Shown: positions 2,872-28,518, counted from the stretch's first letter. The stretch is 32,000 bases of DNA from Geobacter metallireducens GS-15 (GCF_000012925.1 NC_007517.1:1950001-1982000); one strand, 5' to 3'. Notes: generated from the sequence alone by a model not told the origin. A program made the numbers and translations.

Positions 2872-3705
2872 TTACTTGTAACGCTTCGTCAGCTCGAAGG
2901 CCCGCTTGACCCGAGTAACAATTCTGATTGGTTGGACCGGTTTGGCGATGAAGTCCAGAAAACCGGCCTCCAACGCCCGTTGTTCATCTTCGCCGGTGGC
3001 CTTGGAGGTGATGAGGATGACGGGAATGTCGGCGGTGGCCGGGTTTGTGCGCAGAGCACGCAGGAGGCCGAAGCCATCCATGCGCGGCATGGTTGCGTCG
3101 GTTAAAATCATGTCGGGTTTTTCGGTCACGGCCGACTTGAGTCCGTCAACCCCGTCATGGGTCACCAGAACGTCGTACCCTTCTTTCAGAAGCGCCACCT
3201 GAATGACGGTAGCCACGGGGAGGGTATCTTCCACCACGAGGACTTTCTGTCGTTGCACGTCCTTCATCTTGCCATGGAGGTAGTGCTTCTCTATGGCGGC
3301 CAAAAGCTCCTGCCGCGTGGCAAGGATCGGCACCACTTTGAGCCGGTGCTTCTTGGCCAGGAAATCGACGGTGTCCTGATCAAAGGGATCGTTCAGGGCC
3401 AGGGCCAGCATGTTCTCTTTCAGTTTGAGGGGAAAAACAAGCCGCTGTACCGCCATGTCCTGGGGGACGAGGGAGAGCAGCTCCGGCGGAAATGCGTAAT
3501 CGACAAACCCCTTCACCGTTTTGATGCCGAGTTGTTTCGACAGGGCATCGATCAGTTCCTCACCGGTGATGACCCCCATCTCCTCGAGAACCTGACCAAG
3601 TCGTTTTCCGCTCCCCTTCTGGCGCTCCAGGGCCCGCTCAATGGTCTTGACGGTTATGATTCCCGCCTCCACCAGCAGGTCGCCCAGTTGCTTTTTCTGT
3701 ACCAT
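2872..3705 (-). CDS. MshEN (T2SSE_N) domain - response regulator receiver fusion protein
   Basis: The N-terminus has two tandem MshEN-type motifs, QLGDLLVEAGIITVKTIERALERQ and RLGQVLEEMGVITGEELIDALSKQ, separated by KGSGK. The C-terminus is a CheY-like receiver (VLVVEDT...MILTDATMPRMDG...ILITSK...FIAKP). The track start at 3711 is TTG; I prefer the ATG at 3705. Confidence 0.85.
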   Translation of the reverse strand: MVQKKQLGDLLVEAGIITVKTIERALERQKGSGKRLGQVLEEMGVITGEELIDALSKQLGIKTVKGFVDYAFPPELLSLVPQDMAVQRLVFPLKLKENMLALALNDPFDQDTVDFLAKKHRLKVVPILATRQELLAAIEKHYLHGKMKDVQRQKVLVVEDTLPVATVIQVALLKEGYDVLVTHDGVDGLKSAVTEKPDMILTDATMPRMDGFGLLRALRTNPATADIPVILITSKATGEDEQRALEAGFLDFIAKPVQPIRIVTRVKRAFELTKRYK

Positions 3706-3858
3706 CAGCAATTCCCTTCACTTCCGGAGATTTGAGAGCTGGATCGCGAATTTCCTGCCATAGTGGCGTACTGACGGAAAACTTCACTCATTATATCGGA
3801 CACTTTCCCAAATACTTTAGCCAAACAGTAAGAAATTGTTCAACTGTTCGAATCGGCG

Positions 3859-5414: not shown

Positions 5415-6572
5415 TTGCCTGCCAAGACCGCCCTCATATACTCGAACGACTTCAGCCGGTTCAGTTACGGTGACGACCATCCGTTCAAGATCCAGCGTAT
5501 CATTCTTGCCCGCGAGCTCATGGGCATGCTGGGACTCACGGAGTTGCCCGGCGCTTGTATCCATGACTGCCCGCGTGCGGACGAGGCATCCCTTCTCACG
5601 TTTCATTCCCCGGACTATCTACAGCGGCTCCGGGAATTCAGCGATTCCGACGAACCTCGCGCAGACTTCCGGTATGGTCTGGGAGATCTGGACAACCCGG
5701 TCTTCAAGGGATTCTATGACTGGGCAATACTCGGCGTCGGAGGGACCATGGAGGCCGCCCGACTCGTGACCGAGGAGGGGTACGACATCGCCTTCACCAT
5801 GGCAGGGGGGTGGCACCACGCCCACCGGAGCAAGGCATCGGGTTTCTCGTATCTGAATGACGCAGTTATCGCCATTAACACGCTTGTTGCGAAGGGATTG
5901 CGGGTTGCGTACCTGGACATCGACGCCCACCACGGCGACGGGGTTCAGGAGGCCTTTTACGATACCGACCAGGTCCTGACCGTCTCTATCCACGAGAGCG
6001 GCATCTATTTTTTCCCCGGCACCGGCTTCGAGGACGAGATCGGTAGGGGGCAGGGGAGGGGATACTCGGTGAATGTTCCCCTCGTGGCCCACACCGACGA
6101 CGCTCTGTTCATGAAGGCCTTTGACGAAGTGGCCTATCCCCTGATCGCCGCCTACAACCCCGATGTTCTGGTAACCCAACTCGGCGTTGACACGTTTCGC
6201 ACCGACCCCCTCACGCGCCTCGAAATAACCACCCACAGCTACACCTATATCCTGCGCAAGCTGAAGGCGCTGAAAATTCCGTGGGTGGCAGTGGGTGGCG
6301 GCGGATATAACATGATCAACGTTGCCCGGGGATGGACCCTTGCCTGGGGGATCATGAACGGCGTGGAACTGCCGCCGAAGCTGCCGGCCCAATTCGTGGA
6401 TATGATCGCGCCCATGGGACATCCGAACCGGATGCTTCTTGACGCCATGCACTGGGCAGAGGAGGATGACCGGAACCGGGCCCTCGACGCGGTGGAGAGG
6501 AGTATCGCTGCCATTCGGGAAACGGTCTTTCCCGTGATTATCGGAAATTATGCCGCGGCTGCCGGGGAATAG
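5415..6572 (+). CDS. histone deacetylase family protein (AcuC/acetoin-utilization-type class I HDAC-like)
   Basis: HDAC catalytic blocks GGWHHAHRSKASGFSYLND and DIDAHHGDGVQEAFYDTDQVLTVSIHE. TTG start at 5415. Confidence 0.9.
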   Translation: MPAKTALIYSNDFSRFSYGDDHPFKIQRIILARELMGMLGLTELPGACIHDCPRADEASLLTFHSPDYLQRLREFSDSDEPRADFRYGLGDLDNPVFKGFYDWAILGVGGTMEAARLVTEEGYDIAFTMAGGWHHAHRSKASGFSYLNDAVIAINTLVAKGLRVAYLDIDAHHGDGVQEAFYDTDQVLTVSIHESGIYFFPGTGFEDEIGRGQGRGYSVNVPLVAHTDDALFMKAFDEVAYPLIAAYNPDVLVTQLGVDTFRTDPLTRLEITTHSYTYILRKLKALKIPWVAVGGGGYNMINVARGWTLAWGIMNGVELPPKLPAQFVDMIAPMGHPNRMLLDAMHWAEEDDRNRALDAVERSIAAIRETVFPVIIGNYAAAAGE

Positions 6573-7398
6573 TGCACTCGTTGACGCTGCCGGACGGGTG
6601 CTCCACTCCCTTCGGGAGATCAATTTCCTATCTCAGGTGGAGCGTGAGCGATTCTACGTCGGCATACTTCCTCCGCGGCTCTTTGCGTACCTTGGCATCT
6701 CGCCGCAAACCCTCTGCGGCGCCGACGGCCTGAGGCGCATCAAGGTCATCGCCCCGGAGGGGATAGGGATTGCGCGGATCGAGGTCAAGGCGCACCCGGC
6801 AGACACAGACACAGCCTTTTTTCTGGAACTGGCAGACACCCACTACGGCCAGATGGAGCTTTCATTCTGCATCATCGCCGATCCTGAAACGCCCCGCTAT
6901 TACGTGGACAAGGACGCAGCGGGGCGAGACAACTGCTTTACGACCCTGGGCCGCAATATTCCCGAGGAACTCAGGGCCATGGAGGCGGGTCTCTTCCCGA
7001 ACCAGACGAGGCGGGGACTACACCTTTTCGGGGAGTTCTTCCCCATCTTCGAGCGGTTCGTGGATTCCCTCGGAATGGAGATGATAGTGGCGGAGCCCCT
7101 GACCTACGACAATGCCATCCGCTATGAAAAGTACGGTTTCGACTACATAACCGGAAAGCGGCTCATGCTGGAAATAGACCAGGAGTTCCGCCGGGGCGGA
7201 ATCCTTTTCGGGCGGCTCGACGGTTCTAACCCGTTTCGGATGCCAGGTGCTGAGCGTACGGTGCGGGGGAGGAGTTGGGCCATCCACGACGGGATCATGG
7301 ACGAACCCTGGGACGAGGTGCGGATCTACAAGACGGTTGGAGAACATGCTGGAATCGACACCTTTCCCGACAGAAACAATGAAGGAGGACACCCCTGA
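6550..7398 (+). CDS. hypothetical protein with a possible GNAT-like C-terminal half
   Basis: 282-aa ORF that overlaps the deacetylase stop by 23 nt. The segment RRGLHLFGEFFPIFERFVDSLGMEMIVAEPLTYDNAIRYEKYGFDY resembles the GNAT motif A/B region (the ...N.A...YEK.GF ending). I recognise no firm family. Confidence 0.7.
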   Translation: MPRLPGNSALVDAAGRVLHSLREINFLSQVERERFYVGILPPRLFAYLGISPQTLCGADGLRRIKVIAPEGIGIARIEVKAHPADTDTAFFLELADTHYGQMELSFCIIADPETPRYYVDKDAAGRDNCFTTLGRNIPEELRAMEAGLFPNQTRRGLHLFGEFFPIFERFVDSLGMEMIVAEPLTYDNAIRYEKYGFDYITGKRLMLEIDQEFRRGGILFGRLDGSNPFRMPGAERTVRGRSWAIHDGIMDEPWDEVRIYKTVGEHAGIDTFPDRNNEGGHP

Positions 7399-7399
7399 C

Positions 7400-8353
7400 A
7401 TGCACGCGCAAACGAAAGACCTCACCCCCATCAAGGGAATTCGCTACTATTACCCACCCGATGATGCCGTTCTGGTTTTCAAGGACGAGAAGGAGCGGAT
7501 ACATTACGGCGGCATGCCGGTGCCGCTGCTGGAGGATGACTTTGCCAGGCTGGACGGAGAGCCATCCTACGATGAGGTTGGCCGTGGGGTTTACCAGGCC
7601 CTTCGGAGCAATCCCGACTGCATCCTCTGCGACAAATATGCGGCACTCCTCAGGGACGCCTATCCCCACTACCTGGCCGAGTTGGCCAGCAATGCCATCA
7701 TGATCGACAGCAAGGACGTGGAAGTTCCCTATCTCGACCGCAAGATCGCCTGCCTGAAGGTTCTTGCCCTTCTGGAGCCGCAAAATCCGGCTCTCCCCCT
7801 TGAGATCGGCAGGGTCTTTCTTGATCGGGGGATGCGGCTTTCGGCCCTCCATCTTTCCACCGTCAGCATCTATCGGGCCGAGCACTTCCTCAACCGGGCC
7901 CATACCCTCGCACCGGACGACCGCAACATCAATCGTTACCTGGGAGAGGCGTACTACCTTCTCGGCAAGTACGACGAGGCGGTCGGTTTCTGGCGAAAGG
8001 CCACGACAACTGACGAGCCGGAAGCGGAGCGGCTGCGGGAGCGCATTGAACGGATTAGCGCCGGGAATGTTCCCCTGATTCCCCCTGTTGATTATCTGGA
8101 AGCAATCGGAGCGGCCTTTGCATGTAACCAGACCGGAGAGTACGAAGAGTCTATTGCCATTCTTCAGGATATCCTGATGGATCCGGTATTTAGCGAGGAG
8201 TTTCCCATCCCTGAGATTCACTGCGTCATCGGTAAGGGATTCACGGCCCTCGACATGCCGAAGTACGCCGAGGCGGAATTTCGCCAGGCCCTTGTGATGG
8301 ATCCGGCTCACGAGGAGGCCCGAGCTCTCCTTGCCACGATCGCTGCTGCGTAG
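7400..8353 (+). CDS. TPR-repeat protein
   Basis: The ATG at 7400 lies 10 nt after AGGAGG and 1 nt after the previous stop. TPR-like helices include LGEAYYLLGKYDEAVGFWRKA and GKGFTALDMPKYAEAEFRQALVMDPAHEEA. The listed ORF (7247) was trimmed. Confidence 0.75.
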   Translation: MHAQTKDLTPIKGIRYYYPPDDAVLVFKDEKERIHYGGMPVPLLEDDFARLDGEPSYDEVGRGVYQALRSNPDCILCDKYAALLRDAYPHYLAELASNAIMIDSKDVEVPYLDRKIACLKVLALLEPQNPALPLEIGRVFLDRGMRLSALHLSTVSIYRAEHFLNRAHTLAPDDRNINRYLGEAYYLLGKYDEAVGFWRKATTTDEPEAERLRERIERISAGNVPLIPPVDYLEAIGAAFACNQTGEYEESIAILQDILMDPVFSEEFPIPEIHCVIGKGFTALDMPKYAEAEFRQALVMDPAHEEARALLATIAAA

Positions 8354-8365
8354 TTAGGGGTGTCC

Positions 8366-8461
8366 ATGTTCGGCTTCAGCATTGCAGACTGGATTTTCAT
8401 TGGCCTGGTGATGGCAACGATCTTTACCTGTGTTGCCATCAGCGACATGCGGAGGAAATAA
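8366..8461 (+). CDS. candidate small membrane peptide (31 aa), below the ORF-track cutoff
   Basis: ATG at 8366 and TAA at 8459-8461. The translation MFGFSIADWIFIGLVMATIFTCVAISDMRRK is one hydrophobic helix with a basic tail. It fills the gap between the TPR gene and the next membrane protein. The SD is weak. Confidence 0.3.
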   Translation: MFGFSIADWIFIGLVMATIFTCVAISDMRRK

Positions 8462-8500
8462 CACTGATGCGTGCGGATATTCGGTATGGAAGGTAGCGAA

Positions 8501-8938
8501 ATGACGGATGAGCATGACGAGCGACGACCATTGGGGCTGGTGCTCCTTACCGGGCTCTATCTCTTCTTTTTTGTCGTGACAGTGTCCACGTATGGCAGTC
8601 CGTTTCCGTTTCTCGGCAGGATTTACCTCGGGACGGTTGCCAAGGCACTTATCTTTGTCGACAGCCTTGTCTGCCTCTATCTCTTTCTCGGGCTCATGAA
8701 ACGGCAAAACATGACCTGGTACCTGCTTATCTGCTACAACCTGTTCGAGGTAATCAACACAATCGTTAACCTGACCTTTATCACGCCGGCAGAACTGGAG
8801 CGGGTCATCGGAGAACGGATCGACCAGGAGGCGCTCATGGTCAACAACATCGCGAGCGCCCTGGCGATTCTGCTCCTGACCCAGTATATCTACCGGCACA
8901 AGCATTACTTCACGAACTCTCGGAAGTATCTCTTCTGA
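8501..8938 (+). CDS. small integral membrane protein (about 4 TM helices)
   Basis: Four hydrophobic segments: LGLVLLTGLYLFFFVVTV, AKALIFVDSLVCLYLFLGL, WYLLICYNLFEVINTIV and IASALAILLLTQYIY. The ATG at 8501 lies 7 nt after GGAAGG; alternative starts are 8471 (GTG) and 8486 (ATG). It is preferred over the antisense ORF 8354..8905. Confidence 0.65.
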   Translation: MTDEHDERRPLGLVLLTGLYLFFFVVTVSTYGSPFPFLGRIYLGTVAKALIFVDSLVCLYLFLGLMKRQNMTWYLLICYNLFEVINTIVNLTFITPAELERVIGERIDQEALMVNNIASALAILLLTQYIYRHKHYFTNSRKYLF

Positions 8939-9026
8939 CAGGGATTTGACCGGCGTATGCCGAGGTGGGTACCCCTGTTTCTGGCGCTCAGATGTGGGCA
9001 GCTAAACGTTTTACGGGAGGATAGAT

Positions 9027-9899
9027 GTGTTTTTGAAGTCATTGATGGAGCCAAAGGAGGAAGGTGGGCTTTTCCAGAAGCTCATGCACGGCCTTGCCGG
9101 TTCCATCTTCCATGGCGAACAGGCGAATTCCCGGATTGACCTGAGCGATACCCGCGGAGTATCGATCAGGATCGAGAATCTCAACAAACATTTTGGCGAC
9201 AAACATGTGCTCAGGGATGTGAACCTGGAGATTCGTTCCGGCGAAACATTCGCCATCATCGGTCCATCGGGAACCGGCAAGAGCGTTCTGCTTCGGCACA
9301 TCGTCAAACTTGTGCGCCCCGACAACGGCGAGATTTATATCGATGGGCACCCCATATTTGCCGCCAATGGCGAGGAAACGACCGCCAATTACCGTTACAG
9401 CATGGTCTTTCAGTCATCGGCCCTGTTCAACTCCCTTACCGTGGGAGAGAACGTGGGACTGTGGCTGCGGGAGAAACGCGTTTGCAAGGAACAGCGGATC
9501 GGGGAGATAATCCGCGAGAAACTGGCCATGGTGGGGCTTGAAGGGACCGAAGAGCTCAAAACCTCAGAGCTTTCGGGGGGTATGAAAAAGCGGGTCGCCA
9601 TTGCGCGGTCCCTGGCCATGAATCCAGACCTGATTCTCTATGACGAGCCCACTGCAGAGTTGGATCCGGTTACCACCGATGAGTTGGCAAATACGATTAT
9701 CAGACTCAAGGAAACGACGAAAAACACCACGGTCATCGTGACTCACGATCTCAATTTCGCCCTCTATGTTGCCGACCGGATCGCCATGATGCACGGGGGA
9801 ACCATCGTTGGAGCCGGGACTCCTGCCGAGATAAAGGCGAGCGAAAACCCTATAATCAAGGGATTCATCTATACGACTACCAAAGGGATCAAGGGGTGA
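9027..9899 (+). CDS. ABC transporter ATP-binding protein (MlaF-like by eye)
   Basis: Walker A GPSGTGKS, signature LSGGMKKRVAIARS, Walker B LILYDEPTAELD and H-loop VTHD. The GTG at 9027 lies 7 nt after GGGAGG; alternative ATGs are at 9045 and 9081. Confidence 0.9.
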   Translation: MFLKSLMEPKEEGGLFQKLMHGLAGSIFHGEQANSRIDLSDTRGVSIRIENLNKHFGDKHVLRDVNLEIRSGETFAIIGPSGTGKSVLLRHIVKLVRPDNGEIYIDGHPIFAANGEETTANYRYSMVFQSSALFNSLTVGENVGLWLREKRVCKEQRIGEIIREKLAMVGLEGTEELKTSELSGGMKKRVAIARSLAMNPDLILYDEPTAELDPVTTDELANTIIRLKETTKNTTVIVTHDLNFALYVADRIAMMHGGTIVGAGTPAEIKASENPIIKGFIYTTTKGIKG

Positions 9900-9945
9900 G
9901 CGCCGCTTTGCTGGTTTCCGGCGTACCCGGTCAGGGCAGGAATCC

Positions 9946-10959
9946 ATGAATATGCTCAACACAATTAGCGGTATTTTCACTGCTGCCGTCGTGACGACGG
10001 GCGCCCTTCTGCTCTCATCCTGCGCTGAGCTCAAGCAGGACCGTCCCCTGCTGCCGGTCCGCGAATACGAGCGGATGATCGTGGGGCGCCTCGACGCCGA
10101 GTATGTGGGAACCGACAACTGCGTCTCCAAATGCCACAAGCACGAGAAGATTGCCGATGATTTCAGGCACAGTCTGCACGGCGAGCAGATAAAGCCGGAG
10201 ACCGGCCTTCCGCTCGTCAACTGCGAGTCGTGCCATGGCCCTGGGAGTCTTGCCATAGAAAAACTCGGCGATAACGTGGAAGAAAATGACGAAAAAAAGG
10301 TGAAGTGCGACACAAGCACGTTCCTTGACATCCACAATCTCCCGACACCAGCCCAGTCACTCATCTGCCTCAAATGCCACGCGGCCGCCTCGTCGCCGAC
10401 CCTGGCCCACTGGACCGGAAGCGTTCATGCCCTGAACGACGTTGGCTGCTTTGACTGCCACAAACTACACCGAAGCCCTCGCCAGAAGGTGACCAGGGAG
10501 GAGACCGCAGAGCTCTGTTATGGCTGCCATACGGAGATCAAAGCCGAGAACAGCCTCTTTTCCCACCATCCGATCAGGGAGAAGAAGATTGCCTGCACTG
10601 ACTGCCATGATCCCCATGGCTCCGTGCAACCCCATCTCCTCAAGGGAAGCACCCCCAAGGAGCTCTGTACCCGTTGCCACATGGAGAAGCAGGGGCCCTT
10701 CGCCTTCGAGCACGGCGATGTGACCGAGAATTGCGCCACCTGCCACTCACCACACGGTTCGGTCAACAACCATCTCCTCAATGCCGCCATGCCGTTTCTC
10801 TGCCTCCAGTGCCACGGGGGGCATGTGGTTACGCTGATGCCGAATGATCCTGTAGACAAGCGTCTGTTCAACAACCGCTGCACCGACTGTCACTCACAGA
10901 TCCATGGGACCGACATACCGGCGGGGGCCAATAATAATAGGGGCAACTTCCTCCGGTAG
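9946..10959 (+). CDS. decahaem c-type cytochrome, MtrA/DmsE/PioA/MtoA family, with lipoprotein-type signal peptide
   Basis: Ten CXXCH motifs: CVSKCH, CESCH, CLKCH, CFDCH, CYGCH, CTDCH, CTRCH, CATCH, CLQCH, CTDCH. The C-terminal half aligns by eye with Shewanella MtrA (SHHPI..CTDCHDPHGS, FEHGDVTENCATCHSPHGSVN, CLQCH, CTDCHSQIHGT). The signal peptide ends in the lipobox LLSSC. Confidence 0.92.
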   Translation: MNMLNTISGIFTAAVVTTGALLLSSCAELKQDRPLLPVREYERMIVGRLDAEYVGTDNCVSKCHKHEKIADDFRHSLHGEQIKPETGLPLVNCESCHGPGSLAIEKLGDNVEENDEKKVKCDTSTFLDIHNLPTPAQSLICLKCHAAASSPTLAHWTGSVHALNDVGCFDCHKLHRSPRQKVTREETAELCYGCHTEIKAENSLFSHHPIREKKIACTDCHDPHGSVQPHLLKGSTPKELCTRCHMEKQGPFAFEHGDVTENCATCHSPHGSVNNHLLNAAMPFLCLQCHGGHVVTLMPNDPVDKRLFNNRCTDCHSQIHGTDIPAGANNNRGNFLR

Positions 10960-10992
10960 GCGGAATCCAGGCAACCGTAAGGAGTTTGTATT

Positions 10993-13098
10993 GTGATAAG
11001 GCGGGGATACATAGCAAAATTCGTGATGATGGTGGTGTGTCTTTGGGCTGCGACGGCCGTTGCGGCGGGAAGCGACGAGGCCGTTTCTGACAGCGGAACC
11101 ACTGGTCAGCCACCCGCCGTCGAAGGTGTGACCGAAGAGCAAACTTTCGAGGAACCCCCCGAGCCCCCCCCCGAGCCCCCCCCCGAGCAACCCCTCCAGA
11201 ACATGGAGATCGAGACCCATCGCATTGCGGAGGCTTCAGCCGGCTATCGCTTTGTTGGCACCCGCGACAGCGGCGTCAGGGCTGCTGAGTACGACTATCT
11301 TCATTCGAGCCTTGCGGGTGGAGCGCGCTTGACGCATCTTGGCAAGGACCTGAAGCTCGATGTGGACGGCGCCTTTCTCAATACCGAGGACTACTTCGCC
11401 AACCTCATGGCCGATTACGGCGGGTACTACCGGCTGACCGCGCGGACCGAATCGCTCTTCCATAACCTGGATCACGTGACGAGCGATTTGGGTATTTTCG
11501 ATGATCCTGATCGTGCTGCACGTTACGGCGTCTCCACCCGGCGGGACTCTATCCAGTTTCGCTACAAACTCCACGATTACCCTATCCATTTGAATCTGAG
11601 CCACTGGCTCATTGACCGGGAAGGTACGCAGCAGCGCCGCTATGCTGATTTTTCATTTGAAGATTACTATCACAATATCCTTATCCCGACTGAGCCTCCT
11701 ATTGTTCCCGGGTCAAAACTCTACTTCAGGTCACGCAGTGTTAAGCAGGTGTCCTCCGAAGGGACGGCTGGCTTCGACGCCCATCTGGGGCCGGTCAACG
11801 TCGTCTATTCCTTCCTCTTCAGGGAGTTTGACAACGGGGAGTCAACGCCTATCCATGAATACAAAGCGCTGACAGGCCCTTCCGAGCACAACGAAGACCC
11901 GGAAAGCCGCTACTATTCCCACACCGTAAAGCTTTACACGTCACCAGCAGGGGGGATTACCGGCGCAGCCTCCTATACGCATGGCAGGAGGGAGAACCTT
12001 TCTTCGCTGACGTCGGTTGTCGGAGCTGCTAATGTCAAGGACACAATCCAGAATGCAGCGGGCGATTTCACTTACTCTCCCTGCGCGTGGTTCACGACTG
12101 CCATCAAATACCGACATCTCACTATCGATCGCGATACACCGTCAACGCTGTTTATTCCCTCTCTGTCGACCCAGACGGTAACACTCCGCCAGGGTATTGA
12201 TACGCGAAAGGACACCATTTCGGCAAACCTGACCATCCGGCCCAATATGCTCATGAGCGTCAATGGCGAATATCAGGGTATCTTTCAGCACCGCAGCAAC
12301 ACCGGAACGACAGATCCCAAGACGATGTGGAATCTTCCCGAGGATTCCGATACCCATAAGGGAATCCTGACGGTACTGTTCCGCCCCATCAAGGGATTTC
12401 GGCTCAGGGGCCTTTACGAGTACACCACCACCAACAATCCCCTCTACGATTCCGACCCCGAACAGAAACATGAAGGGAGACTTCTCGCCACCTACACGAA
12501 TTCCAGCCGATGGGGCGCGTCGGCAAACTATCGCATTGCCCGGGAATGGAACGATCGCATCTCCCGGACCACTCACCCTGAACTCCTCGATAGCCCCGAG
12601 ACCTACGTTCTTCCTCGCGACCGGAATTTCGTGCATGCGTCCGTCGGCTTCTGGGTAAGCCCCATCGACCGGTTCACGGTAAGCGGCAATTTCGGATACT
12701 TGCGGACCAGGGCTGAACAGGCAGTCCTCTTTGCCACCGTTTTCAATGGTATGAATGCCGCAACCGAATATGTCTCCCAGGGCGAAATCTATTCCGTAAA
12801 CGCCGCATACCATGCCTCCGAGCAACTCGATCTCTCCCTTGCGTATCAGCTGGTCCATTCCCGCTCGACGTTCAAGCCTGGCAGGACTACCTCGGACGGT
12901 ACTCCTACCGACGGAATCAGTGAGCTTTCGCGGATAAAGACCGTGGAACATTCCCTGTCGGCCCGCGCTGACTACCGGCTAATGAAGCATTTTGGCTGTT
13001 CGTTGGATTATACTTACCGTGCATACGACAATCGGTTGTCTTCCGAAGGTGACGGAGCGGTTCATGAGGTTACCGCCCTACTAAAGACTTCGTGGTAA
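10993..13098 (+). CDS. outer-membrane beta-barrel protein, MtrB/PioB-like (701 aa)
   Basis: GTG start 8 nt after TAAGGAG. Signal peptide (VVCLWAATAVAA|GS), then an acidic Pro-rich linker, then about 600 aa of alternating Y/F/R-rich strand-like sequence ending in a terminal aromatic (LLKTSW). It lies directly downstream (33 nt) of the decahaem gene and matches MtrB/PioB-family barrels in size. Confidence 0.75.
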   Translation: MIRRGYIAKFVMMVVCLWAATAVAAGSDEAVSDSGTTGQPPAVEGVTEEQTFEEPPEPPPEPPPEQPLQNMEIETHRIAEASAGYRFVGTRDSGVRAAEYDYLHSSLAGGARLTHLGKDLKLDVDGAFLNTEDYFANLMADYGGYYRLTARTESLFHNLDHVTSDLGIFDDPDRAARYGVSTRRDSIQFRYKLHDYPIHLNLSHWLIDREGTQQRRYADFSFEDYYHNILIPTEPPIVPGSKLYFRSRSVKQVSSEGTAGFDAHLGPVNVVYSFLFREFDNGESTPIHEYKALTGPSEHNEDPESRYYSHTVKLYTSPAGGITGAASYTHGRRENLSSLTSVVGAANVKDTIQNAAGDFTYSPCAWFTTAIKYRHLTIDRDTPSTLFIPSLSTQTVTLRQGIDTRKDTISANLTIRPNMLMSVNGEYQGIFQHRSNTGTTDPKTMWNLPEDSDTHKGILTVLFRPIKGFRLRGLYEYTTTNNPLYDSDPEQKHEGRLLATYTNSSRWGASANYRIAREWNDRISRTTHPELLDSPETYVLPRDRNFVHASVGFWVSPIDRFTVSGNFGYLRTRAEQAVLFATVFNGMNAATEYVSQGEIYSVNAAYHASEQLDLSLAYQLVHSRSTFKPGRTTSDGTPTDGISELSRIKTVEHSLSARADYRLMKHFGCSLDYTYRAYDNRLSSEGDGAVHEVTALLKTSW
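11155..11187 (+). repeat. poly-C / 12-nt tandem repeat inside the barrel gene
   Basis: C6-GAG-C9-GAG-C9-GAG encodes PPEPPPEPPPE. The two nine-base C homopolymers are at 11164-11172 and 11176-11184. Confidence 0.95.
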
Positions 13099-13105
13099 TA
13101 TTTTT

Positions 13106-14080
13106 ATGTGGCAACGCACCTTGATACTGAAACGACTCATATATATTCTGCCGGTGTTGATTTTTGCAGTCTGCGCTACACCTGCGTCCGCGGCGAGAAA
13201 GTTCGTGGCGGCTGTCCTTACCAGCGACATGCCGCGGTACAAGGAGGCCTACCGTGCCTTCGTCAAGGGACTTGCCGCCAAGGGATACGGAGAAGGTGAG
13301 GTGGAATTTGTGACCCAGACTCCGAACCCGGACCCCATCTCCTGGGCCAACAGTGTCAGAAAATTCAGCGCCCTTGACCCTGATATCCTTGTCACGTTCG
13401 GTGCGCCTGCCACAATATCGGCCACACAGGAAGTCCTCAGGATGCCGATCGTGTTCGTGGACGTGTACGGACCGGTGGAAACGGGCATTTCGCGAAGCAT
13501 GACGAAAGCAGGAGGAAATCTGTGCGGCGTCAGCTCCAAGGTGCCCATGACCACACTCATTAAGGCTATGATGGCCATACGTCCCGTTAAGACCCTTGGT
13601 ATTCTTTATAACAGCAGGGAGCGCGGTTCTTATGTCCAGATGCAGGAGATCAAGCGACTGGCCGCCCAGCAAGGATTTGCGGTGTTAGAGGCGAACGTGC
13701 CGGTTGCTTCCGGTCTCGACGCGGCATTAACCCATGTGCTGTCAAAATCCGATTGCCTCTTTGTCTCCGAGAGTTCCGTTGTGAACCGTGGGATGGATAA
13801 GGTAATGCACAAGGCCATGAGAGCTAAGGTTCCGGTCATTTCTCTCGCACCTGATGCGGCAGGGAAGGGGGCCTTGGTATCCCTGGAGGTGAGCCCCACG
13901 GAACAGGGACAACTGGCTGCCAACCACGTGGCCAAGATTCTTTCGGGGATGAAACCGGGAGATCTTCCGATTCTTACGCCCCGCAAAGTCGATCTTGTAA
14001 TCAATCTGGAAAGCGCGAAATCCCTTGACCTTCAGGTTCCGTTCCGTGTATTGAGTCTTGCCACGAAGGTGATCAAGTGA
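13106..14080 (+). CDS. periplasmic binding protein, ABC_sub_bind/COG2984-like
   Basis: Signal peptide (LIFAVCATPASA|AR). Type-I PBP-like blocks are DILVTFGAPATISA, MPIVFVDVYGP, GGNLCGVSS, LGILYNSRERGS and PVISLAPD. Confidence 0.8.
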   Translation: MWQRTLILKRLIYILPVLIFAVCATPASAARKFVAAVLTSDMPRYKEAYRAFVKGLAAKGYGEGEVEFVTQTPNPDPISWANSVRKFSALDPDILVTFGAPATISATQEVLRMPIVFVDVYGPVETGISRSMTKAGGNLCGVSSKVPMTTLIKAMMAIRPVKTLGILYNSRERGSYVQMQEIKRLAAQQGFAVLEANVPVASGLDAALTHVLSKSDCLFVSESSVVNRGMDKVMHKAMRAKVPVISLAPDAAGKGALVSLEVSPTEQGQLAANHVAKILSGMKPGDLPILTPRKVDLVINLESAKSLDLQVPFRVLSLATKVIK

Positions 14081-14120
14081 TTCAGCGTGATAATGGGTTG
14101 GTGTGCCGATAGAGGTATTG

Positions 14121-14507
14121 ATGGGAAAGATTCTGATCGTTGATGACGATAAGGCGTTTTCGCAATTTCTCAAACGATATATTAATCAGCATTATCCAGT
14201 ACTCAAGGTGCAGATCTGCACGAGTCCGGTCCGAGCCCTTCCGATAATTAGCAAGGGTGATGTTGATCTGCTTCTGGTTGACTATGAAATGCCGGTGCTC
14301 GACGGGGATAAGGTCGTCAAGTACGCATGTGAAGTAGGGATGGACAAGAGCAGGATAATCGTACTTTCCAGCCGTGACGCGGATTTTCTCCATGAGCATT
14401 TCCCCCTGGGGACCTGTCTCGCAGTGATGAACAAGTACGAAGCACGGCAGAAGGCCGTGCTCGACATGGTATTCAGTTCACTTCAGCGCAAGGCGGCGGG
14501 GAGATAA
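14121..14507 (+). CDS. single-domain response regulator (CheY-like receiver)
   Basis: The ATG at 14121 follows GAGG. Acidic pocket ILIVDDD, phospho-acceptor context LLLVDYEMPVLDG, IIVLSS and a conserved Lys in VMNKY. There is no output domain. Confidence 0.85.
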   Translation: MGKILIVDDDKAFSQFLKRYINQHYPVLKVQICTSPVRALPIISKGDVDLLLVDYEMPVLDGDKVVKYACEVGMDKSRIIVLSSRDADFLHEHFPLGTCLAVMNKYEARQKAVLDMVFSSLQRKAAGR

Positions 14508-14535
14508 GGATAATTCCGTGCAGGAGGATCTGCCG

Positions 14536-14928
14536 ATGGGAGCAAAAGAGATTACGGTTGTGTTTTACCGTCAGAATCACATGAGAGACAACTGGAAAGT
14601 GGATCTCGACGGTGTTGAGGCGGAACGTTTCTTCGGCAAGCTGGAGGGAGACCTCTCCCGTGCCGGGGTCGTACTGAAGAGATCCCGCAACGAAGCCTTT
14701 ACCATAGACATCAACAGCTATGCCGACCTGTTAAATGCGGTAAGAATTTCCTCACCCGCTGATGGCTTCGGTAGCGTCTGCATCGGGCACATAATCGGGC
14801 AAAGCCAGAATCTCGACATTATGGACGACATCCGACGTGCCGTGATGAGAATCGCCTTTGCGCCGGAGACTGTTCCTCCAGAGGACCATAACCGGAAGGT
14901 ATGTCACAACTGCGGTTGTGGCTGTTGA
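14536..14928 (+). CDS. hypothetical cytoplasmic protein with C-terminal CHNCGCGC tail
   Basis: The ATG at 14536 lies 8 nt after AGGAGG. The 130-aa product has no signal peptide and no family I recognise. The last eight residues contain four Cys and one His. Confidence 0.65.
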   Translation: MGAKEITVVFYRQNHMRDNWKVDLDGVEAERFFGKLEGDLSRAGVVLKRSRNEAFTIDINSYADLLNAVRISSPADGFGSVCIGHIIGQSQNLDIMDDIRRAVMRIAFAPETVPPEDHNRKVCHNCGCGC

Positions 14929-22843: not shown

Positions 22844-23836
22844 TCAGCGCCAGGGGAAGAGCGTGCGGTATTTCCGGATCTCCTGCTCAAAGGTTTGTTC
22901 GATCTCTCCCTTTGGGCTGTTCAATCTGTAATAGACAAGAGCAAAGGCAATGGCGCCGAAAAGAAGTATGATGCAAGCGGCTGTTGCTAATCGCAACAAC
23001 CGCTTTCGGCGGGAGTAAGCCGCATACTCAAGGGAAGAGATACTTACGGTTCCGCCCTGATGGTCACGAAGCCGATCCAGTTGTTCAAGTGAGATAAACC
23101 TGATTACTGAGTCGCGGTCCCGTTCGTCGATGCAGAGGAAATGGAGGGCGGTGCTGAACAGCGGGGGAGTCCCTTCCTTGGTGCGGAGGGTGTCCACATG
23201 GACCACCTCCGCAATGATTGGCACAATCTTGAGATCTTCAAGGGGAAGGTAGAGTTCCATTGACAGGAGAGTGCCTGTTTGAAATTTATCCCGCGTTCTG
23301 ATTCTGATGCCCGAGCCGCTCAGATTGGCCGCCAGTGGAACTGCTCTGGACGGCTCAGTGGCAGGAGATGTTTCCCTATCGGTTGATAAATGGGCGGCAT
23401 CGTCCGTGGATTGATGTACCGGATACCGTTTTGCTCGCCACCGTTCCTGCAGTTGCTCGGGAGTTGCGTCGAGGTCCAACTGATACCGAACCGGAACATA
23501 GGTCTCGATGCGGTAGTACTCACGCATTTCATCGGGGATGACGTTGCCGATCAACCGGGCGGTTACCTGTGAGCCGTCCCGTTCAGCTACGATGATGGCA
23601 CGACTGCAGTAGGCGTTGCCATCCTTCCCCGTGCGGATGTCGACAAAAGTCCCCGTTTCTGCCCTGACGTCTTCAGGAAGAGCATCACGTGAAATCTGTA
23701 ACGTGATGAGATCTTCTTCCTGCAGGGTGATGATCGCTCCATCACGGAACGGTTTATTTTGCCCGCGGGGGAAGCGAACCTCAACCCGGAGTCCGGTAGC
23801 GAAATGCTTCTGGTAATCGGAGAACTCTTCTTTCAT
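22844..23836 (-). CDS. PilZ-domain c-di-GMP receptor with C-terminal membrane anchor
   Basis: The RxxxR motif (REYYR) is followed by (D/N)xSxxG (NLSGSG) in the central domain. The N-terminus is a YcgR/PilZN-like barrel. The C-terminal TM helix is ATAACIILLFGAIAFALVYY. Confidence 0.8.
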   Translation of the reverse strand: MKEEFSDYQKHFATGLRVEVRFPRGQNKPFRDGAIITLQEEDLITLQISRDALPEDVRAETGTFVDIRTGKDGNAYCSRAIIVAERDGSQVTARLIGNVIPDEMREYYRIETYVPVRYQLDLDATPEQLQERWRAKRYPVHQSTDDAAHLSTDRETSPATEPSRAVPLAANLSGSGIRIRTRDKFQTGTLLSMELYLPLEDLKIVPIIAEVVHVDTLRTKEGTPPLFSTALHFLCIDERDRDSVIRFISLEQLDRLRDHQGGTVSISSLEYAAYSRRKRLLRLATAACIILLFGAIAFALVYYRLNSPKGEIEQTFEQEIRKYRTLFPWR

Positions 23837-27787: not shown

Positions 27788-27875
27788 TTGATAGACGATA
27801 ATACTCAACCATTCGCGAGAATGGGGCGGAAAGCCTATAGGGTCTCATGCAGACAGCCGGGTTGCCGAAATATCA
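27788..27875 (+). promoter_or_regulatory. GEMM-I cyclic-dinucleotide riboswitch aptamer (c-di-GMP or 3'3'-cGAMP class)
   Basis: AACCAUUC-GCGA-GAAUGGGGCGGAAAGCC...AGCCGGGUUGCCGAAA parallels the V. cholerae Vc2 core AAACCAUUC-GAAA-GAGUGGGACGCAAAGCC...AGCGGGGUUACCGAUGG. The P1 hairpin is at 27809-27824 with a GNRA loop (GCGA). A possible closing helix is TGATA (27789-27793) with TATCA (27871-27875). Confidence 0.75.
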
Positions 27876-27966: not shown

Positions 27967-28518
27967 ATGAAAAAATTTCTTACGGTCCTACCTTTGTTTT
28001 TTGCAACGGTGTCCCCGTCGTTTGCTGCTTCCGACGTTGGTTTTGACGTGAATATCAACGTCGGAAACCGCTCTGGTGTTGTGATTCCGGCCCCCCCGGC
28101 GGTAGTGGTCCCGGCTCCGCGGGTTGTGATTGAGGAACCCCCGCTTTTTATTGCACCTCCTCGTCTCGGTTTCTATGTTGGTGTCGATATCCCCTACGAT
28201 ATTTTTTACATCTCCGGTCGTTACTATCTCTGGCAAGATAATTACTGGTACCGTGCGCCCAGCTACGGGGGACCATGGACCGTGGTCAATCACAGAAACC
28301 TCCCCCCCGGACTCCGCAAACACAAACTGGAGCGGATTCGTTACTACCGCGATGACGAGTATCGAGTATACAGCCATGAACATGATCATTATCGGGGCAA
28401 ACATTTCAAGCCGGGGAAAGAGTACAAGGAGCGCTACAAGGAGGAGCGGAAGCGGGAAAAGCGCGAATATAAACACCATGGCGAGGAAAAGGGTCATGGG
28501 CACGGGCACGACGACTGA
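27967..28518 (+). CDS. secreted hypothetical protein with aromatic W/Y core and basic, His-rich tail
   Basis: Signal peptide MKKFLTVLPLFFATVSPSFA|AS. Pro-rich segment (IPAPPAVVVPAPRVVIEEPP). Core YYLWQDNYWYRAPSYGGPW. The tail is KEYKERYKEERKREKREYKHHGEEKGHGHGHDD. Confidence 0.75.
   Translation: MKKFLTVLPLFFATVSPSFAASDVGFDVNINVGNRSGVVIPAPPAVVVPAPRVVIEEPPLFIAPPRLGFYVGVDIPYDIFYISGRYYLWQDNYWYRAPSYGGPWTVVNHRNLPPGLRKHKLERIRYYRDDEYRVYSHEHDHYRGKHFKPGKEYKERYKEERKREKREYKHHGEEKGHGHGHDD

What the first reader, a model, noticed from the sequence alone, without database searches (positions are those of the whole stretch)
9027..14928. MtrAB/PioAB-type porin-decahaem conduit without an MtrC partner, packaged with an orphan ABC ATPase, a COG2984 binding protein, a lone receiver and a Cys-tailed protein
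Seen in the sequence: six co-directional genes are separated by only 46, 33, 7, 40 and 28 nt. I see no hairpin with a T-run between them.

The genes, in order:
- an ABC ATPase
- a 337-aa cytochrome with ten CXXCH motifs that aligns by eye with MtrA
- a 701-aa signal-peptide protein with beta-barrel character and a terminal Trp
- a periplasmic binding protein
- a CheY-like receiver
- a 130-aa protein ending in CHNCGCGC

Established knowledge: the decahaem MtrA inserted into the MtrB barrel is the Shewanella trans-outer-membrane wire. Pairs that lack the surface cytochrome MtrC (PioAB, MtoAB) are associated with Fe(II) oxidation or electron uptake. The classical Geobacter conduits (OmaB/OmbB/OmcB, Ext clusters) use different cytochromes.

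Inference: no inner-membrane quinol oxidoreductase and no surface cytochrome is encoded nearby. Signalling and transport-type genes are co-packaged instead. The unit may therefore be a regulated or sensory electron conduit rather than a standard respiratory one. I know of no characterised Mtr/Pio/Mto locus with this gene set.
Basis: partly seen in the sequence, partly recalled or inferred. Interest (0 to 1): 0.8.

Follow-up and report, generated by a model that had tools for sequence, protein, structure and literature searches.

The report
MtrAB electron conduit with binding-protein partner
Geobacter metallireducens has an operon for an outer-membrane electron wire that always comes with a periplasmic binding protein, and in other phyla the same trio sits inside chemotaxis gene clusters, which suggests the wire may act as a sensor.

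Summary
The window is Geobacter metallireducens GS-15. It carries six tightly spaced, co-directional genes: ABC ATPase, decahaem cytochrome, 701-aa barrel, PF04392 binding protein, receiver, and a Cys-tailed protein.

- **Cytochrome:** a clear MtrA homologue (TIGR03508 299 bits; PDB 6R2Q_A E 1e-44). It has nine CXXCH motifs plus a CX3CH first motif, and a lipoprotein signal.
- **Barrel:** a remote MtrB relative. Pfam scores only 24.9 bits, but the AlphaFold model has 26 strands and its best fold match is MtrB (TM 0.69-0.74).
- **Conserved core:** the new result is that lipoprotein MtrA, MtrB and the binding protein form a conserved trio.
  - The binding protein follows the barrel in 39/39 genome loci and 8/8 metagenome loci of this clade.
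  - It is absent from 0/34 canonical mtrAB or mtrCAB loci.
- **Link to signalling:** in seven clade contigs from outside Geobacteraceae (two traced to Nitrospirota), MCP, CheA or CheW genes adjoin the conduit. Three have the binding-protein gene overlapping an MCP start codon. Some also carry an MtrC-like cytochrome.
- **Lineage-specific additions:** the ABC ATPase, the receiver and the Cys-tailed protein.

The sensory reading gains independent support but remains inference. The ABC/binding-protein adjacency in Geobacterales was already noted in 2024.

The parts
9027..9899 (+). ABC-type ATPase (single nucleotide-binding domain, no membrane domain). RefSeq start is 9045. It has an N-terminal extension of about 45 aa.
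   Evidence: PF00005 E 1e-33; the NCBIfam hits are generic and all fall below their cut-offs, for example MlaF at 172 bits against a cut-off of 441. It is 69-99% identical across Geobacteraceae-type loci. In contig L053 a 70%-identical copy is followed by an MlaD-domain gene. It is absent from the chemotaxis-linked clade members.
9946..10959 (+). MtrA-like decahaem c-type cytochrome, predicted outer-membrane lipoprotein. It has nine CXXCH motifs plus a CX3CH as the first haem motif.
   Evidence: TIGR03508 scores 298.8 bits against a cut-off of 192.2. PDB 6R2Q_A (MtrA) E 1.3e-44 over residues 54-328. The lipobox Cys, the N-terminal linker and the CX3CH motif are conserved in all clade members and absent from 62 canonical MtrA homologues.
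10993..13098 (+). MtrB-like 26-strand outer-membrane beta-barrel, with a signal peptide, a Pro-rich linker and a C-terminal Trp.
   Evidence: PF11854 scores 24.9 bits against a cut-off of 23; 37 of 64 relatives match it. The AlphaFold2 model has pLDDT 85 and 26 long strands. The top Foldseek hit is 6R2Q_B (MtrB), E 3e-18, TM 0.69/0.74; the next hits have TM of about 0.4.
13106..14080 (+). Periplasmic PF04392 (COG2984) solute-binding-fold protein, the conserved third partner of the conduit.
   Evidence: PF04392 E 7e-49. PDB 3LKV E 5e-33. It lies directly after the barrel in 39/39 genome and 8/8 metagenome clade loci and in 0/34 canonical loci, Fisher p 8e-9. It has no conserved Cys, His or Met.
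14121..14507 (+). Stand-alone receiver domain protein (ORF opens at 14103).
   Evidence: PF00072 E 5e-12. The acidic pocket, the phospho-acceptor Asp, the Ser and the Lys are conserved in 40 orthologues, but the C-terminal half diverges from CheY. It is present in all Geobacteraceae-type loci, including the basal ones.
14536..14928 (+). 130-aa cytoplasmic protein with invariant CxGH and a C-terminal VCHNCGCGC. Probably binds a metal or a cluster. It is the most loosely attached member of the unit.
   Evidence: No Pfam or NCBIfam match. The invariant residues are shown. The AlphaFold2 model has pLDDT 85, and no PDB fold match is better than E 0.04. Only 18 representatives exist among 1.84 billion clusters. 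It is missing from L042, L043 and L050-L052 and from all non-Geobacteraceae clade members.
8939..9026 (+). Intergenic region upstream of the ABC gene, where the operon promoter lies in relatives. The promoter is eroded in GS-15.
   Evidence: Most Geobacteraceae carry CTTGCr-N17-TGnTATcAT here. GS-15 and G. hydrogenophilus have lost the match, and no promoter-like site was found in GS-15. The median gap before the ABC gene is 118 nt, against 13-38 nt inside the unit.

Best explanation
**Shown**
- The six genes form one tightly packed unit.
- Its core is a distinct clade of MtrAB-type trans-outer-membrane electron conduit with three parts:
  1. a lipid-anchored decahaem MtrA-like cytochrome, whose first, periplasm-facing haem motif is CX3CH;
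  2. a 26-strand MtrB-like barrel;
  3. an obligatory periplasmic PF04392 binding-fold protein.
- This trio is conserved across phyla.

**Inferred**
- The trio works as an envelope-spanning input device for signalling rather than only as a respiratory outlet.
- Electrons exchanged with an extracellular mineral, electrode or metal ion set the redox state of the haem chain.
- The binding protein reports this state, or a product generated at the conduit, to a transducer.
- In Nitrospirota and other lineages the transducer would be a Cache-domain chemoreceptor, whose gene overlaps the binding-protein gene and which feeds a CheA/CheW/CheY pathway.
- In Geobacteraceae no chemoreceptor is in the operon. 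The output would run through the co-transcribed receiver protein, with its kinase encoded elsewhere.
- The MlaF-like ATPase and the Cys-tailed protein are family-specific additions of unknown role.
For: - **MtrA homology:**
- **MtrB fold:**
- **Operon packing and boundaries:**. A conserved promoter lies ahead of the ABC gene in relatives.
- **Trio conservation:** the binding protein is present in 47/47 clade loci with enough sequence downstream and in 0/34 canonical MtrA loci. Those canonical loci are genuine mtrCAB.
- **Cross-phylum spread:** L057 and L058 carry proteins identical to Nitrospirota MAG proteins.
- **Chemosensory embedding:** MCP, CheA or CheW adjoin the conduit in 7/12 non-Geobacteraceae clade contigs and in 0/62 outgroup contigs, p 8e-6. 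The binding-protein stop codon overlaps the MCP start in L055, L057 and L058.
- **Clade-specific features at the periplasmic end of MtrA:** lipid anchor, conserved linker and CX3CH haem 1.
- **Physiological precedent:** in Shewanella, mtrBC/omcA and a Cache-domain MCP are both needed for congregation at insoluble acceptors (PMC5789149). G. metallireducens makes flagella on metal oxides, and chemotaxis to the oxides has been postulated (PMC2577667).
Against: - No experiment addresses this locus.
- Gene adjacency to che genes could reflect co-regulation of a respiratory conduit with taxis rather than sensing by the conduit itself.
- The Geobacteraceae operon has no MCP, CheA or CheW, and its receiver is not a canonical CheY.
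- The binding protein has no conserved Cys, His or Met that could sense redox state or bind a metal. Solved PF04392 proteins bind aromatic amino acids.
- Not all clade contigs show che genes. L053 has ABC plus MlaD, L054 has an Rrf2 regulator, and L056 has a second binding protein.
- The promoter is eroded in GS-15 itself.
Confidence: 0.5

Rival explanations
1. It is an ordinary respiratory or electron-uptake conduit of the MtoAB/PioAB type, moving electrons for energy metabolism (Fe(III)/Mn(IV) reduction, Fe(II) oxidation or cathodic uptake). The neighbouring signalling genes only regulate its expression or coordinate taxis with respiration. The binding protein would be an assembly or docking factor.
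For: Ten haem sites and a 26-strand barrel are enough to span the outer membrane, and MtrAB alone transfers electrons in proteoliposomes (PMC4245776). The related OmcKL pair of G. sulfurreducens is up-regulated on iron minerals (PMC10553843). Some sister-clade loci carry an MtrC-like surface cytochrome, as respiratory Mtr systems do.
Against: It does not explain why a cofactor-less PF04392 protein is always present in this clade and never in canonical mtrAB loci. It also does not explain why that gene overlaps a chemoreceptor gene in three contigs. G. metallireducens already has three Pcc conduits, two of which (PccF and PccG) were shown to matter for interspecies electron transfer (PMC10989804). 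This locus does not appear among the genes returned by my term search of that paper, which did not cover the whole text.
Confidence: 0.3
2. It is a redox-assisted uptake system, as suggested for Geobacterales by Soares and co-workers. The conduit would reduce or release a substrate such as a metal at the surface. The binding protein would capture it in the periplasm, and the ABC ATPase would power import through a permease encoded elsewhere.
For: An ABC ATPase and an ABC-type binding protein flank the conduit in all Geobacteraceae-type loci, and this proposal is in print (PMC11492766). The small membrane protein mem150 (8486-8938) lies just upstream and is syntenic.
Against: - There is no permease gene in the unit.
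- The ATPase is not the type that normally pairs with PF04392 proteins; in L053 it pairs with an MlaD-domain protein.
- The ATPase is absent from the Nitrospirota and other chemotaxis-linked members, while the binding protein is retained.
- The binding protein lacks conserved metal ligands, and known family ligands are aromatic amino acids.
Confidence: 0.12
3. The flanking genes are functionally unrelated neighbours that have stayed together only because this chromosomal region is stable within Geobacteraceae.
For: Synteny in the family extends over unrelated genes on both sides and on both strands: HDAC, unk282, TPR, mem150, YfcE and S49. The Cys-tailed gene is lost in basal loci, and the REC-to-Cys gap reaches 219 nt in some genomes.
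Against: For the binding protein this is refuted by conservation outside the family, in a different gene context and in another phylum. Tight spacing, the lack of terminators and a promoter only ahead of the ABC gene argue for co-transcription of at least ABC through REC.
Confidence: 0.06

Closest known systems
MtrAB of the Shewanella MtrCAB complex (PDB 6R2Q)
   Same: The decahaem cytochrome is homologous over all ten haem sites (E 1e-44). The barrel has 26 strands with MtrB as its best fold match. The gene order is cytochrome then barrel.
   Different: - No MtrC is present in the window.
- The cytochrome is a predicted lipoprotein with a CX3CH first haem motif.
- The barrel scores only 24.9 bits on PF11854, against 300-745 bits for canonical MtrB.
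- A PF04392 protein always follows the barrel, which canonical loci never show.
PioAB / MtoAB two-gene conduits of Fe(II) oxidisers
   Same: A cytochrome-barrel pair with no surface cytochrome gene.
   Different: Canonical MtoA/PioA-type homologues have ten CXXCH motifs and mostly SPI-type signals, with no binding protein nearby. Fe(II) oxidation was not tested here.
OmcK/OmcL (GSU2203/GSU2204) pair of G. sulfurreducens and syntrophic sulfate reducers
   Same: A two-gene decahaem plus barrel pair in Geobacter. The cytochrome hits NF041028 and the barrel hits NF041027. The literature treats the pair as a porin-cytochrome conduit (PMC10553843).
   Different: Both scores are below the family cut-offs (250 against 325; 77 against 350). 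The Gmet barrel has no haem motif. This is a paralogous subfamily, not an orthologue.
Binding-protein-dependent chemoreceptors (for example Tar with maltose-binding protein, CtpL with PstS)
   Same: A periplasmic solute-binding-fold protein is encoded with, and presumably signals to, an MCP. The two genes overlap in sister-clade loci. The general principle is reviewed in PMC10443332.
   Different: Here the binding protein is tied to an outer-membrane electron conduit. No MCP lies in the Geobacter operon, and no ligand is known.
Geobacterales 'ABC ATP-binding / ABC substrate-binding / MtrA / MtrB' operons noted by Soares et al. 2024 (PMC11492766)
   Same: It describes the same gene set for the order Geobacterales, to which G. 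metallireducens belongs, and mentions the ATPase and binding-protein genes.
   Different: That paper proposed a transport role. It did not report the receiver, the Cys-tailed protein, the lipoprotein/CX3CH signature, the cross-phylum trio or the chemotaxis-linked versions.

Membership tests
DmsE/MtrA decahaem cytochrome family (TIGR03508) | Score above the curated family cut-off | tested here: met
   298.8 bits against a cut-off of 192.2. NCBI names it a DmsE family decahaem cytochrome.
DmsE/MtrA decahaem cytochrome family (TIGR03508) | Ten haem-binding motifs aligned with those of MtrA | tested here: met
   Nine CXXCH plus one CX3CH. All ten align with 6R2Q_A, and the first site carries a one-residue insertion.
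DmsE/MtrA decahaem cytochrome family (TIGR03508) | Soluble periplasmic protein with an ordinary signal peptide, as in Shewanella MtrA (from my own knowledge) | tested here: not met
   A lipobox L-[AS]-[AS]-C is conserved in all orthologues. The genome authors annotated it as 'lipoprotein cytochrome c'.
MtrB/PioB outer-membrane barrel family (PF11854) | Pfam gathering score | tested here: met
   Marginal: 24.9 bits against a cut-off of 23. 37 of 64 relatives match at E <= 0.01, the best at 1e-10. Canonical MtrB scores 300-745 bits.
MtrB/PioB outer-membrane barrel family (PF11854) | 26-strand barrel fold | tested here: met
   The AlphaFold2 model has 26 long strands. Foldseek top hit is 6R2Q_B, TM 0.69/0.74, E 3e-18. 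The sequence profile alone finds no PDB relative.
MtrB/PioB outer-membrane barrel family (PF11854) | N-terminal CXXC motif of the MtrB proteins of metal-reducing Gammaproteobacteria (from my own knowledge) | tested here: not met
   Cys occurs only at residues 16, 364 and 669, so there is no CXXC.
MtrCAB respiratory system | Surface decahaem MtrC/OmcA partner encoded with mtrAB | tested here: not met
   There is only one multihaem ORF in the window, and no MtrC-like hit in any Geobacteraceae locus. Sister-clade contigs L057, L059, L060 and L064 do carry one.
MtrCAB respiratory system | Role in dissimilatory metal reduction | not testable with these tools
   This needs genetics and physiology.
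OmcKL (GSU2203/GSU2204) conduit | NCBIfam family cut-offs for both proteins | tested here: not met
   NF041028 scores 250.5 against a cut-off of 325; NF041027 scores 77.2 against a cut-off of 350.
COG2984/PF04392-type ABC importer (TrpXYZ-like) | PF04392 binding protein | tested here: met
   E 7e-49. The TrpX equivalog is not reached (145.7 bits against a cut-off of 390).
COG2984/PF04392-type ABC importer (TrpXYZ-like) | Membrane permease encoded with the binding protein and the ATPase | tested here: not met
   None of the six proteins has membrane spans beyond a signal peptide. The only nearby membrane protein is the 150-aa mem150, which has no family match.
Mla-type (MlaFEDB) system | MlaF ATPase together with MlaE and MlaD | tested here: not met
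   The ATPase scores 172 bits against a cut-off of 441 for MlaF. The ORFs scanned or on record with Pfam in the window show no MlaD or MlaE domain, and an MlaD probe found none in the window or any Geobacteraceae locus. An MlaD-domain gene follows the ATPase only in contig L053.
Chemosensory (MCP-CheA-CheW-CheY) pathway | MCP, CheA and CheW genes adjacent to the unit | tested here: not met
   None is present in the window or next to the operon in Geobacteraceae. They are present in sister-clade contigs L055, L057-L060, L063 and L064.
Chemosensory (MCP-CheA-CheW-CheY) pathway | CheY-like receiver with phospho-acceptor residues | tested here: inconclusive
   PF00072 matches, and the DD, D, S and K residues are conserved. 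The C-terminal half diverges from CheY: local alignment score 58, against 193 for the Nitrospirota CheY.

The most novel reading that the evidence does not exclude
A clade of MtrAB conduits is a trans-envelope 'redox antenna'. The haem wire samples the electron-accepting or electron-donating power of minerals, electrodes or partner cells outside the cell. A dedicated periplasmic binding-fold protein relays that state to a chemoreceptor (in Nitrospirota and others) or to a phospho-relay (in Geobacteraceae). This would be the first defined molecular input for taxis or gene regulation towards insoluble electron acceptors.
Probability: 0.4. Interest if true: 0.9.

Novelty: new variant of a known kind. 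Interest (0 to 1): 0.72.

Why it matters
How bacteria detect insoluble electron acceptors and donors is an open question. In Shewanella, Mtr proteins and a Cache-domain chemoreceptor are both needed for congregation at minerals, but no physical link between them is known (PMC5789149). G. metallireducens makes flagella on metal oxides, and chemotaxis to the oxides has been postulated (PMC2577667).

A conduit clade that always carries a periplasmic binding-fold partner, and that in other phyla is hard-wired into chemotaxis operons, gives a concrete and testable candidate for that link. It also defines a recognisable subfamily: lipoprotein MtrA with a CX3CH first haem, a remote MtrB, and a PF04392 partner. 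Current iron-gene annotation schemes would probably lump this subfamily with respiratory or Fe(II)-oxidising MtrAB, which could distort metagenomic inference of iron cycling.

Tried and rejected
- **Locus tags and expression data.** I searched papers for guessed Gmet_174x tags and for the protein accessions and found nothing. The genome paper and the six-genome comparison do not mention the locus. I therefore cite accessions ABB31974-ABB31979 only.
- **G. sulfurreducens OmcI.** I could not establish whether OmcI (GSU1228), which has a reported deletion phenotype, is the orthologue.
- **Homologue searches.** Searches with the barrel, the Cys-tailed protein and the cytochrome returned only close (>= 35-66% identical) Geobacteraceae-type orthologues in the 120 rows shown, so they gave no outgroup context. 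The metagenome scan with a mixed alignment solved this.
- **Barrel sequence profile.** Searched against PDB, it found nothing. Only the fold comparison linked it to MtrB.
- **Cys-tailed protein fold search.** It gave only weak thioredoxin-like and ArsD-like matches (E >= 0.04, TM <= 0.42). I do not assign a fold.
- **Rfam.** No RNA element was found in or next to the unit.
- **Sigma-54 promoter.** I looked for one by eye ahead of the ABC gene and rejected it because the spacing is wrong.
- **Absence from G. sulfurreducens.** I considered using the genome scan to claim this, but rejected it. The scan also missed G. pickeringii and Geotalea uraniireducens, which do have the barrel, so it is not exhaustive.
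- **Hartshorne 2009.** The paper was not held.


Full report
**Source and observation**

The barrel protein is 100% identical to the 'outer membrane channel, putative' of Geobacter metallireducens GS-15. The six proteins correspond to ABB31974-ABB31979. With the starts used by NCBI, the gaps are 46, 33, 7, 40 and 28 nt. No terminator-like hairpin lies in any gap.

One detail needs correcting. The cytochrome has nine CXXCH motifs plus one CX3CH (CVSKCH), not ten CXXCH. It is the only multihaem ORF in the 32 kb window. The rest of the window carries housekeeping and signalling genes, with no quinol oxidoreductase family among the Pfam domains recorded or scanned.

**What the six proteins are**

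- **Cytochrome.** It passes the curated DmsE/MtrA decahaem model (298.8 bits, cut-off 192.2). It matches MtrA of the solved Mtr complex at E 1.3e-44 across all ten haem sites. The PDB table mislabels that chain; 6R2Q is the Mtr complex.
- **Barrel.** It only just passes Pfam MtrB_PioB (24.9 bits, cut-off 23). Of 64 relatives, 37 match the model. A sequence profile finds no solved relative. An AlphaFold2 model built on 64 sequences (pLDDT 85) has 26 long strands. Its best structural match by a wide margin is MtrB, at TM 0.69/0.74 and E 3e-18; the next hits are TonB-dependent receptors at TM of about 0.4.
- **Fourth protein.** A PF04392 (COG2984) binding protein (E 7e-49).
- **Fifth protein.** A receiver domain.
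- **ATPase.** A generic single-domain ABC ATPase.
- **Sixth protein.** No family match.

**Conservation within Geobacteraceae**

A scan of one genome per species returned 42 loci, all from Geobacteraceae: Geobacter, Geomonas, Citrifermentans, Geomobilimonas, Geoanaerobacter, Geomesophilobacter and MAGs. The six genes co-occur in nearly all of them.

So do unrelated neighbours on both sides (HDAC, a 282-aa unknown, TPR, a 150-aa membrane protein, YfcE on the other strand, and an S49 peptidase). Within-family co-occurrence is therefore weak evidence of function.

Spacing is more informative. Median gaps inside the unit are 13-38 nt. The median gap before the ABC gene is 118 nt, and before the membrane protein it is 256 nt. 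A sigma-70-like promoter (CTTGCr-N17-TGnTATcAT) is conserved ahead of the ABC gene in most genomes, but it is eroded in GS-15 and G. hydrogenophilus.

The two most divergent genome loci (L042, L043) keep everything up to the receiver but lack the Cys-tailed gene.

**The decisive comparison**

I scanned metagenome contigs with a cytochrome alignment that included Shewanella MtrA. This returned 80 loci grading from 71-82% (the closest two are truncated contigs) down to 30% identity. They fall into two sharply separated groups.

1. **Canonical group (62 loci, 30-39% identity).** These have ten CXXCH motifs, a 'GADTCLxCH' first site and mostly ordinary signal peptides. The six downstream barrels sampled score 300-745 bits on MtrB_PioB, and most loci have a large ORF just upstream; the two sampled are MtrC-like. 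They are canonical mtrCAB or mtrAB.
2. **The Gmet clade (18 loci, 47% identity or more).** These share the Gmet signature: a lipobox Cys, a conserved linker (…P..P..EYE..I.GR.DA.Y.G) and a CX3CH first haem.

In this clade a PF04392 protein follows the barrel in all 8 metagenome loci and all 39 genome loci that extend far enough. None of the 34 canonical loci with equal flank has one (Fisher p 8e-9 on the metagenome set).

Clade members outside the Geobacteraceae type lack HDAC, TPR, mem150, the receiver and the Cys-tailed gene. The trio is therefore conserved in different genomic contexts. Proteins on L057 and L058 are identical to proteins of Nitrospirota MAGs, so the trio crosses phyla.

**Signalling context of the sister members**

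Seven of the twelve non-Geobacteraceae clade contigs carry chemotaxis-type genes next to the conduit. None of the 62 canonical contigs does (p 8e-6).

- The common layout in L057-L060 is DUF4388(-GAF), CheY, CheA, CheW and the MtrA-like cytochrome, with an MtrC/MtrF-like multihaem lipoprotein before the cytochrome in L057, L059 and L060.
- L057 and L058, which extend further, continue with the barrel, the binding protein and one or two MCPs. Pfam finds sCache_3_2, HAMP and signalling domains in the first L058 MCP.
- L055 has cytochrome, barrel, binding protein and MCP.
- L063 has CheY, CheW, MCP and cytochrome.
- The binding-protein stop codon overlaps the MCP start (ATGA or GTGA) in L055, L057 and L058.

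Other members differ:
- L053 has the ATPase (70% identical to the Gmet protein) followed by an MlaD-domain gene.
- L054 has an Rrf2 regulator upstream.
- L056 has a second binding protein.

**Reading of the anatomy**

- In the solved Mtr complex, haem 1 and the N-terminus of MtrA face the periplasm (my own knowledge of 6R2Q).
- The clade-specific features, namely the lipid anchor, the linker and the CX3CH haem, all lie at that end. A periplasmic partner would dock there.
- The binding protein has strongly conserved motifs across both phyla (QTPNPD..SW.N..RK, GAPA, EQG and a C-terminal ATKVIK). It has no conserved Cys, His or Met, so it is not itself a redox or classical metal site.
- Solved family members bind aromatic amino acids.
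- The Geobacter receiver keeps the phospho-acceptor residues but is not a canonical CheY.
- The Cys-tailed protein has an invariant CxGH and an invariant VCHNCGCGC tail. Its model is confident but has no fold match, and only 18 representatives exist among 1.84 billion clusters. It is a recent, family-specific addition.

**Most likely mechanism**

What is shown is a conserved three-part envelope module. What is inferred is that this module feeds signalling. The haem chain would equilibrate with an extracellular redox partner. The binding protein would report this state, or a conduit-derived ligand, to a chemoreceptor in Nitrospirota and others, or to an unidentified kinase and the co-transcribed receiver in Geobacteraceae.

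Precedents exist. In Shewanella, mtrBC/omcA and a Cache-domain MCP are both required for congregation at minerals (PMC5789149). G. metallireducens makes flagella on metal oxides, chemotaxis to the oxides has been postulated, and the genome has about 70 che homologues with many unassigned MCPs (PMC2577667).

I put this model at about 0.5. The main rival, at 0.3, is a respiratory or uptake conduit that is merely co-regulated with taxis. The published transport idea (PMC11492766) is weakened by three points: there is no permease, the ATPase looks MlaF/MlaD-like, and the ATPase is missing from the Nitrospirota-type members. Pure synteny inertia is excluded for the binding protein but not for the Cys-tailed gene.

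**Comparison with known systems and novelty**

The unit works like MtrAB and belongs to the MtrA family by score. It is at best a fringe member of the MtrB family by sequence, though a clear one by fold.

- It is not MtrCAB, because it has no MtrC.
- It is not an OmcKL orthologue, because both proteins score below the family cut-offs.
- It is not a complete ABC importer, because there is no permease.

MtrB homologues in Geobacter (PMC7399161), mtrAB in Desulfobacterota (PMC12133095), and the ABC/binding-protein adjacency in Geobacterales (PMC11492766) are already published.

Several points were not found in the library I searched:
- the lipoprotein/CX3CH signature;
- the binding protein as a clade-defining partner across phyla;
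- the chemotaxis-embedded versions.

I rate this as a new variant of a known kind, with interest 0.72.

Noticed in passing
window 27793-27869 (+): A c-di-GMP-I riboswitch (RF01051, 42 bits against a gathering score of 35) lies about 100 nt upstream of a 183-aa WXXGXW-repeat ORF at 27967-28518.
   Followed up: no
window 14536-14928 (+): The Cys-tailed protein belongs to a very small family: 18 representatives among 1.84 billion clusters. It has an invariant CxGH and an invariant VCHNCGCGC tail. Its AlphaFold model is confident but matches no solved fold. The CxxCGC part resembles the nickel-binding motif of HypB (from my own memory, untested).
   Followed up: partly
window 8939-9026: The sigma-70-like promoter conserved ahead of the ABC gene in most Geobacteraceae (CTTGCr-N17-TGnTATcAT) is deleted or eroded in GS-15 and G. 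hydrogenophilus. Expression in the type strain may therefore depend on read-through or on another promoter.
   Followed up: partly
window 5415-8938 (+): A block of HDAC-family deacetylase, a 282-aa protein with no family match (its start overlaps the HDAC gene by 23 nt), a TPR protein and a 150-aa membrane protein with three or four hydrophobic segments is syntenic with the operon in all Geobacteraceae loci. It is absent from the Nitrospirota and other clade members.
   Followed up: partly
L053 6118-8241; window 10993-13098: The barrel of contig L053 carries one CXXCH motif. The Gmet barrel hits the NCBIfam model for GSU2204 (OmcL), described as a CXXCH-containing (seleno)protein. OmcK/OmcL of G. 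sulfurreducens therefore looks like a paralogous MtrAB-like pair with a haem-bearing barrel.
   Followed up: no
L052 858-2573; L043 3-1424; L042 3-635: In three of the basal Geobacteraceae-type loci (L042, L043, L052) an MCP gene (dCache/sCache_2 sensor domain in L052, the one scanned) lies upstream of the HDAC gene on the same strand, separated in L052 by one SprA-related ORF. This may be a relic of the chemosensory linkage, or it may be chance.
   Followed up: partly
window 9027-9170; L053 2744-2890: The ABC ATPase has a conserved N-terminal extension, (L/I)xQKLxHGxxxSIFxG, which is unusual for a nucleotide-binding domain. It is shared with the L053 copy that precedes an MlaD-domain gene.
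   Followed up: no
window 2872-3711 (-) and 22844-23836 (-): A MshEN-plus-receiver protein and a PilZ-domain protein lie in the window, in addition to the riboswitch. The neighbourhood therefore holds several cyclic-di-GMP-related genes.
   Followed up: no
PDB table: Chain 6r2q_A is labelled 'Cystathionine beta-synthase' in the sequence-search table, although entry 6R2Q is the Mtr complex. The label is an error in the table, not a biological finding.
   Followed up: yes
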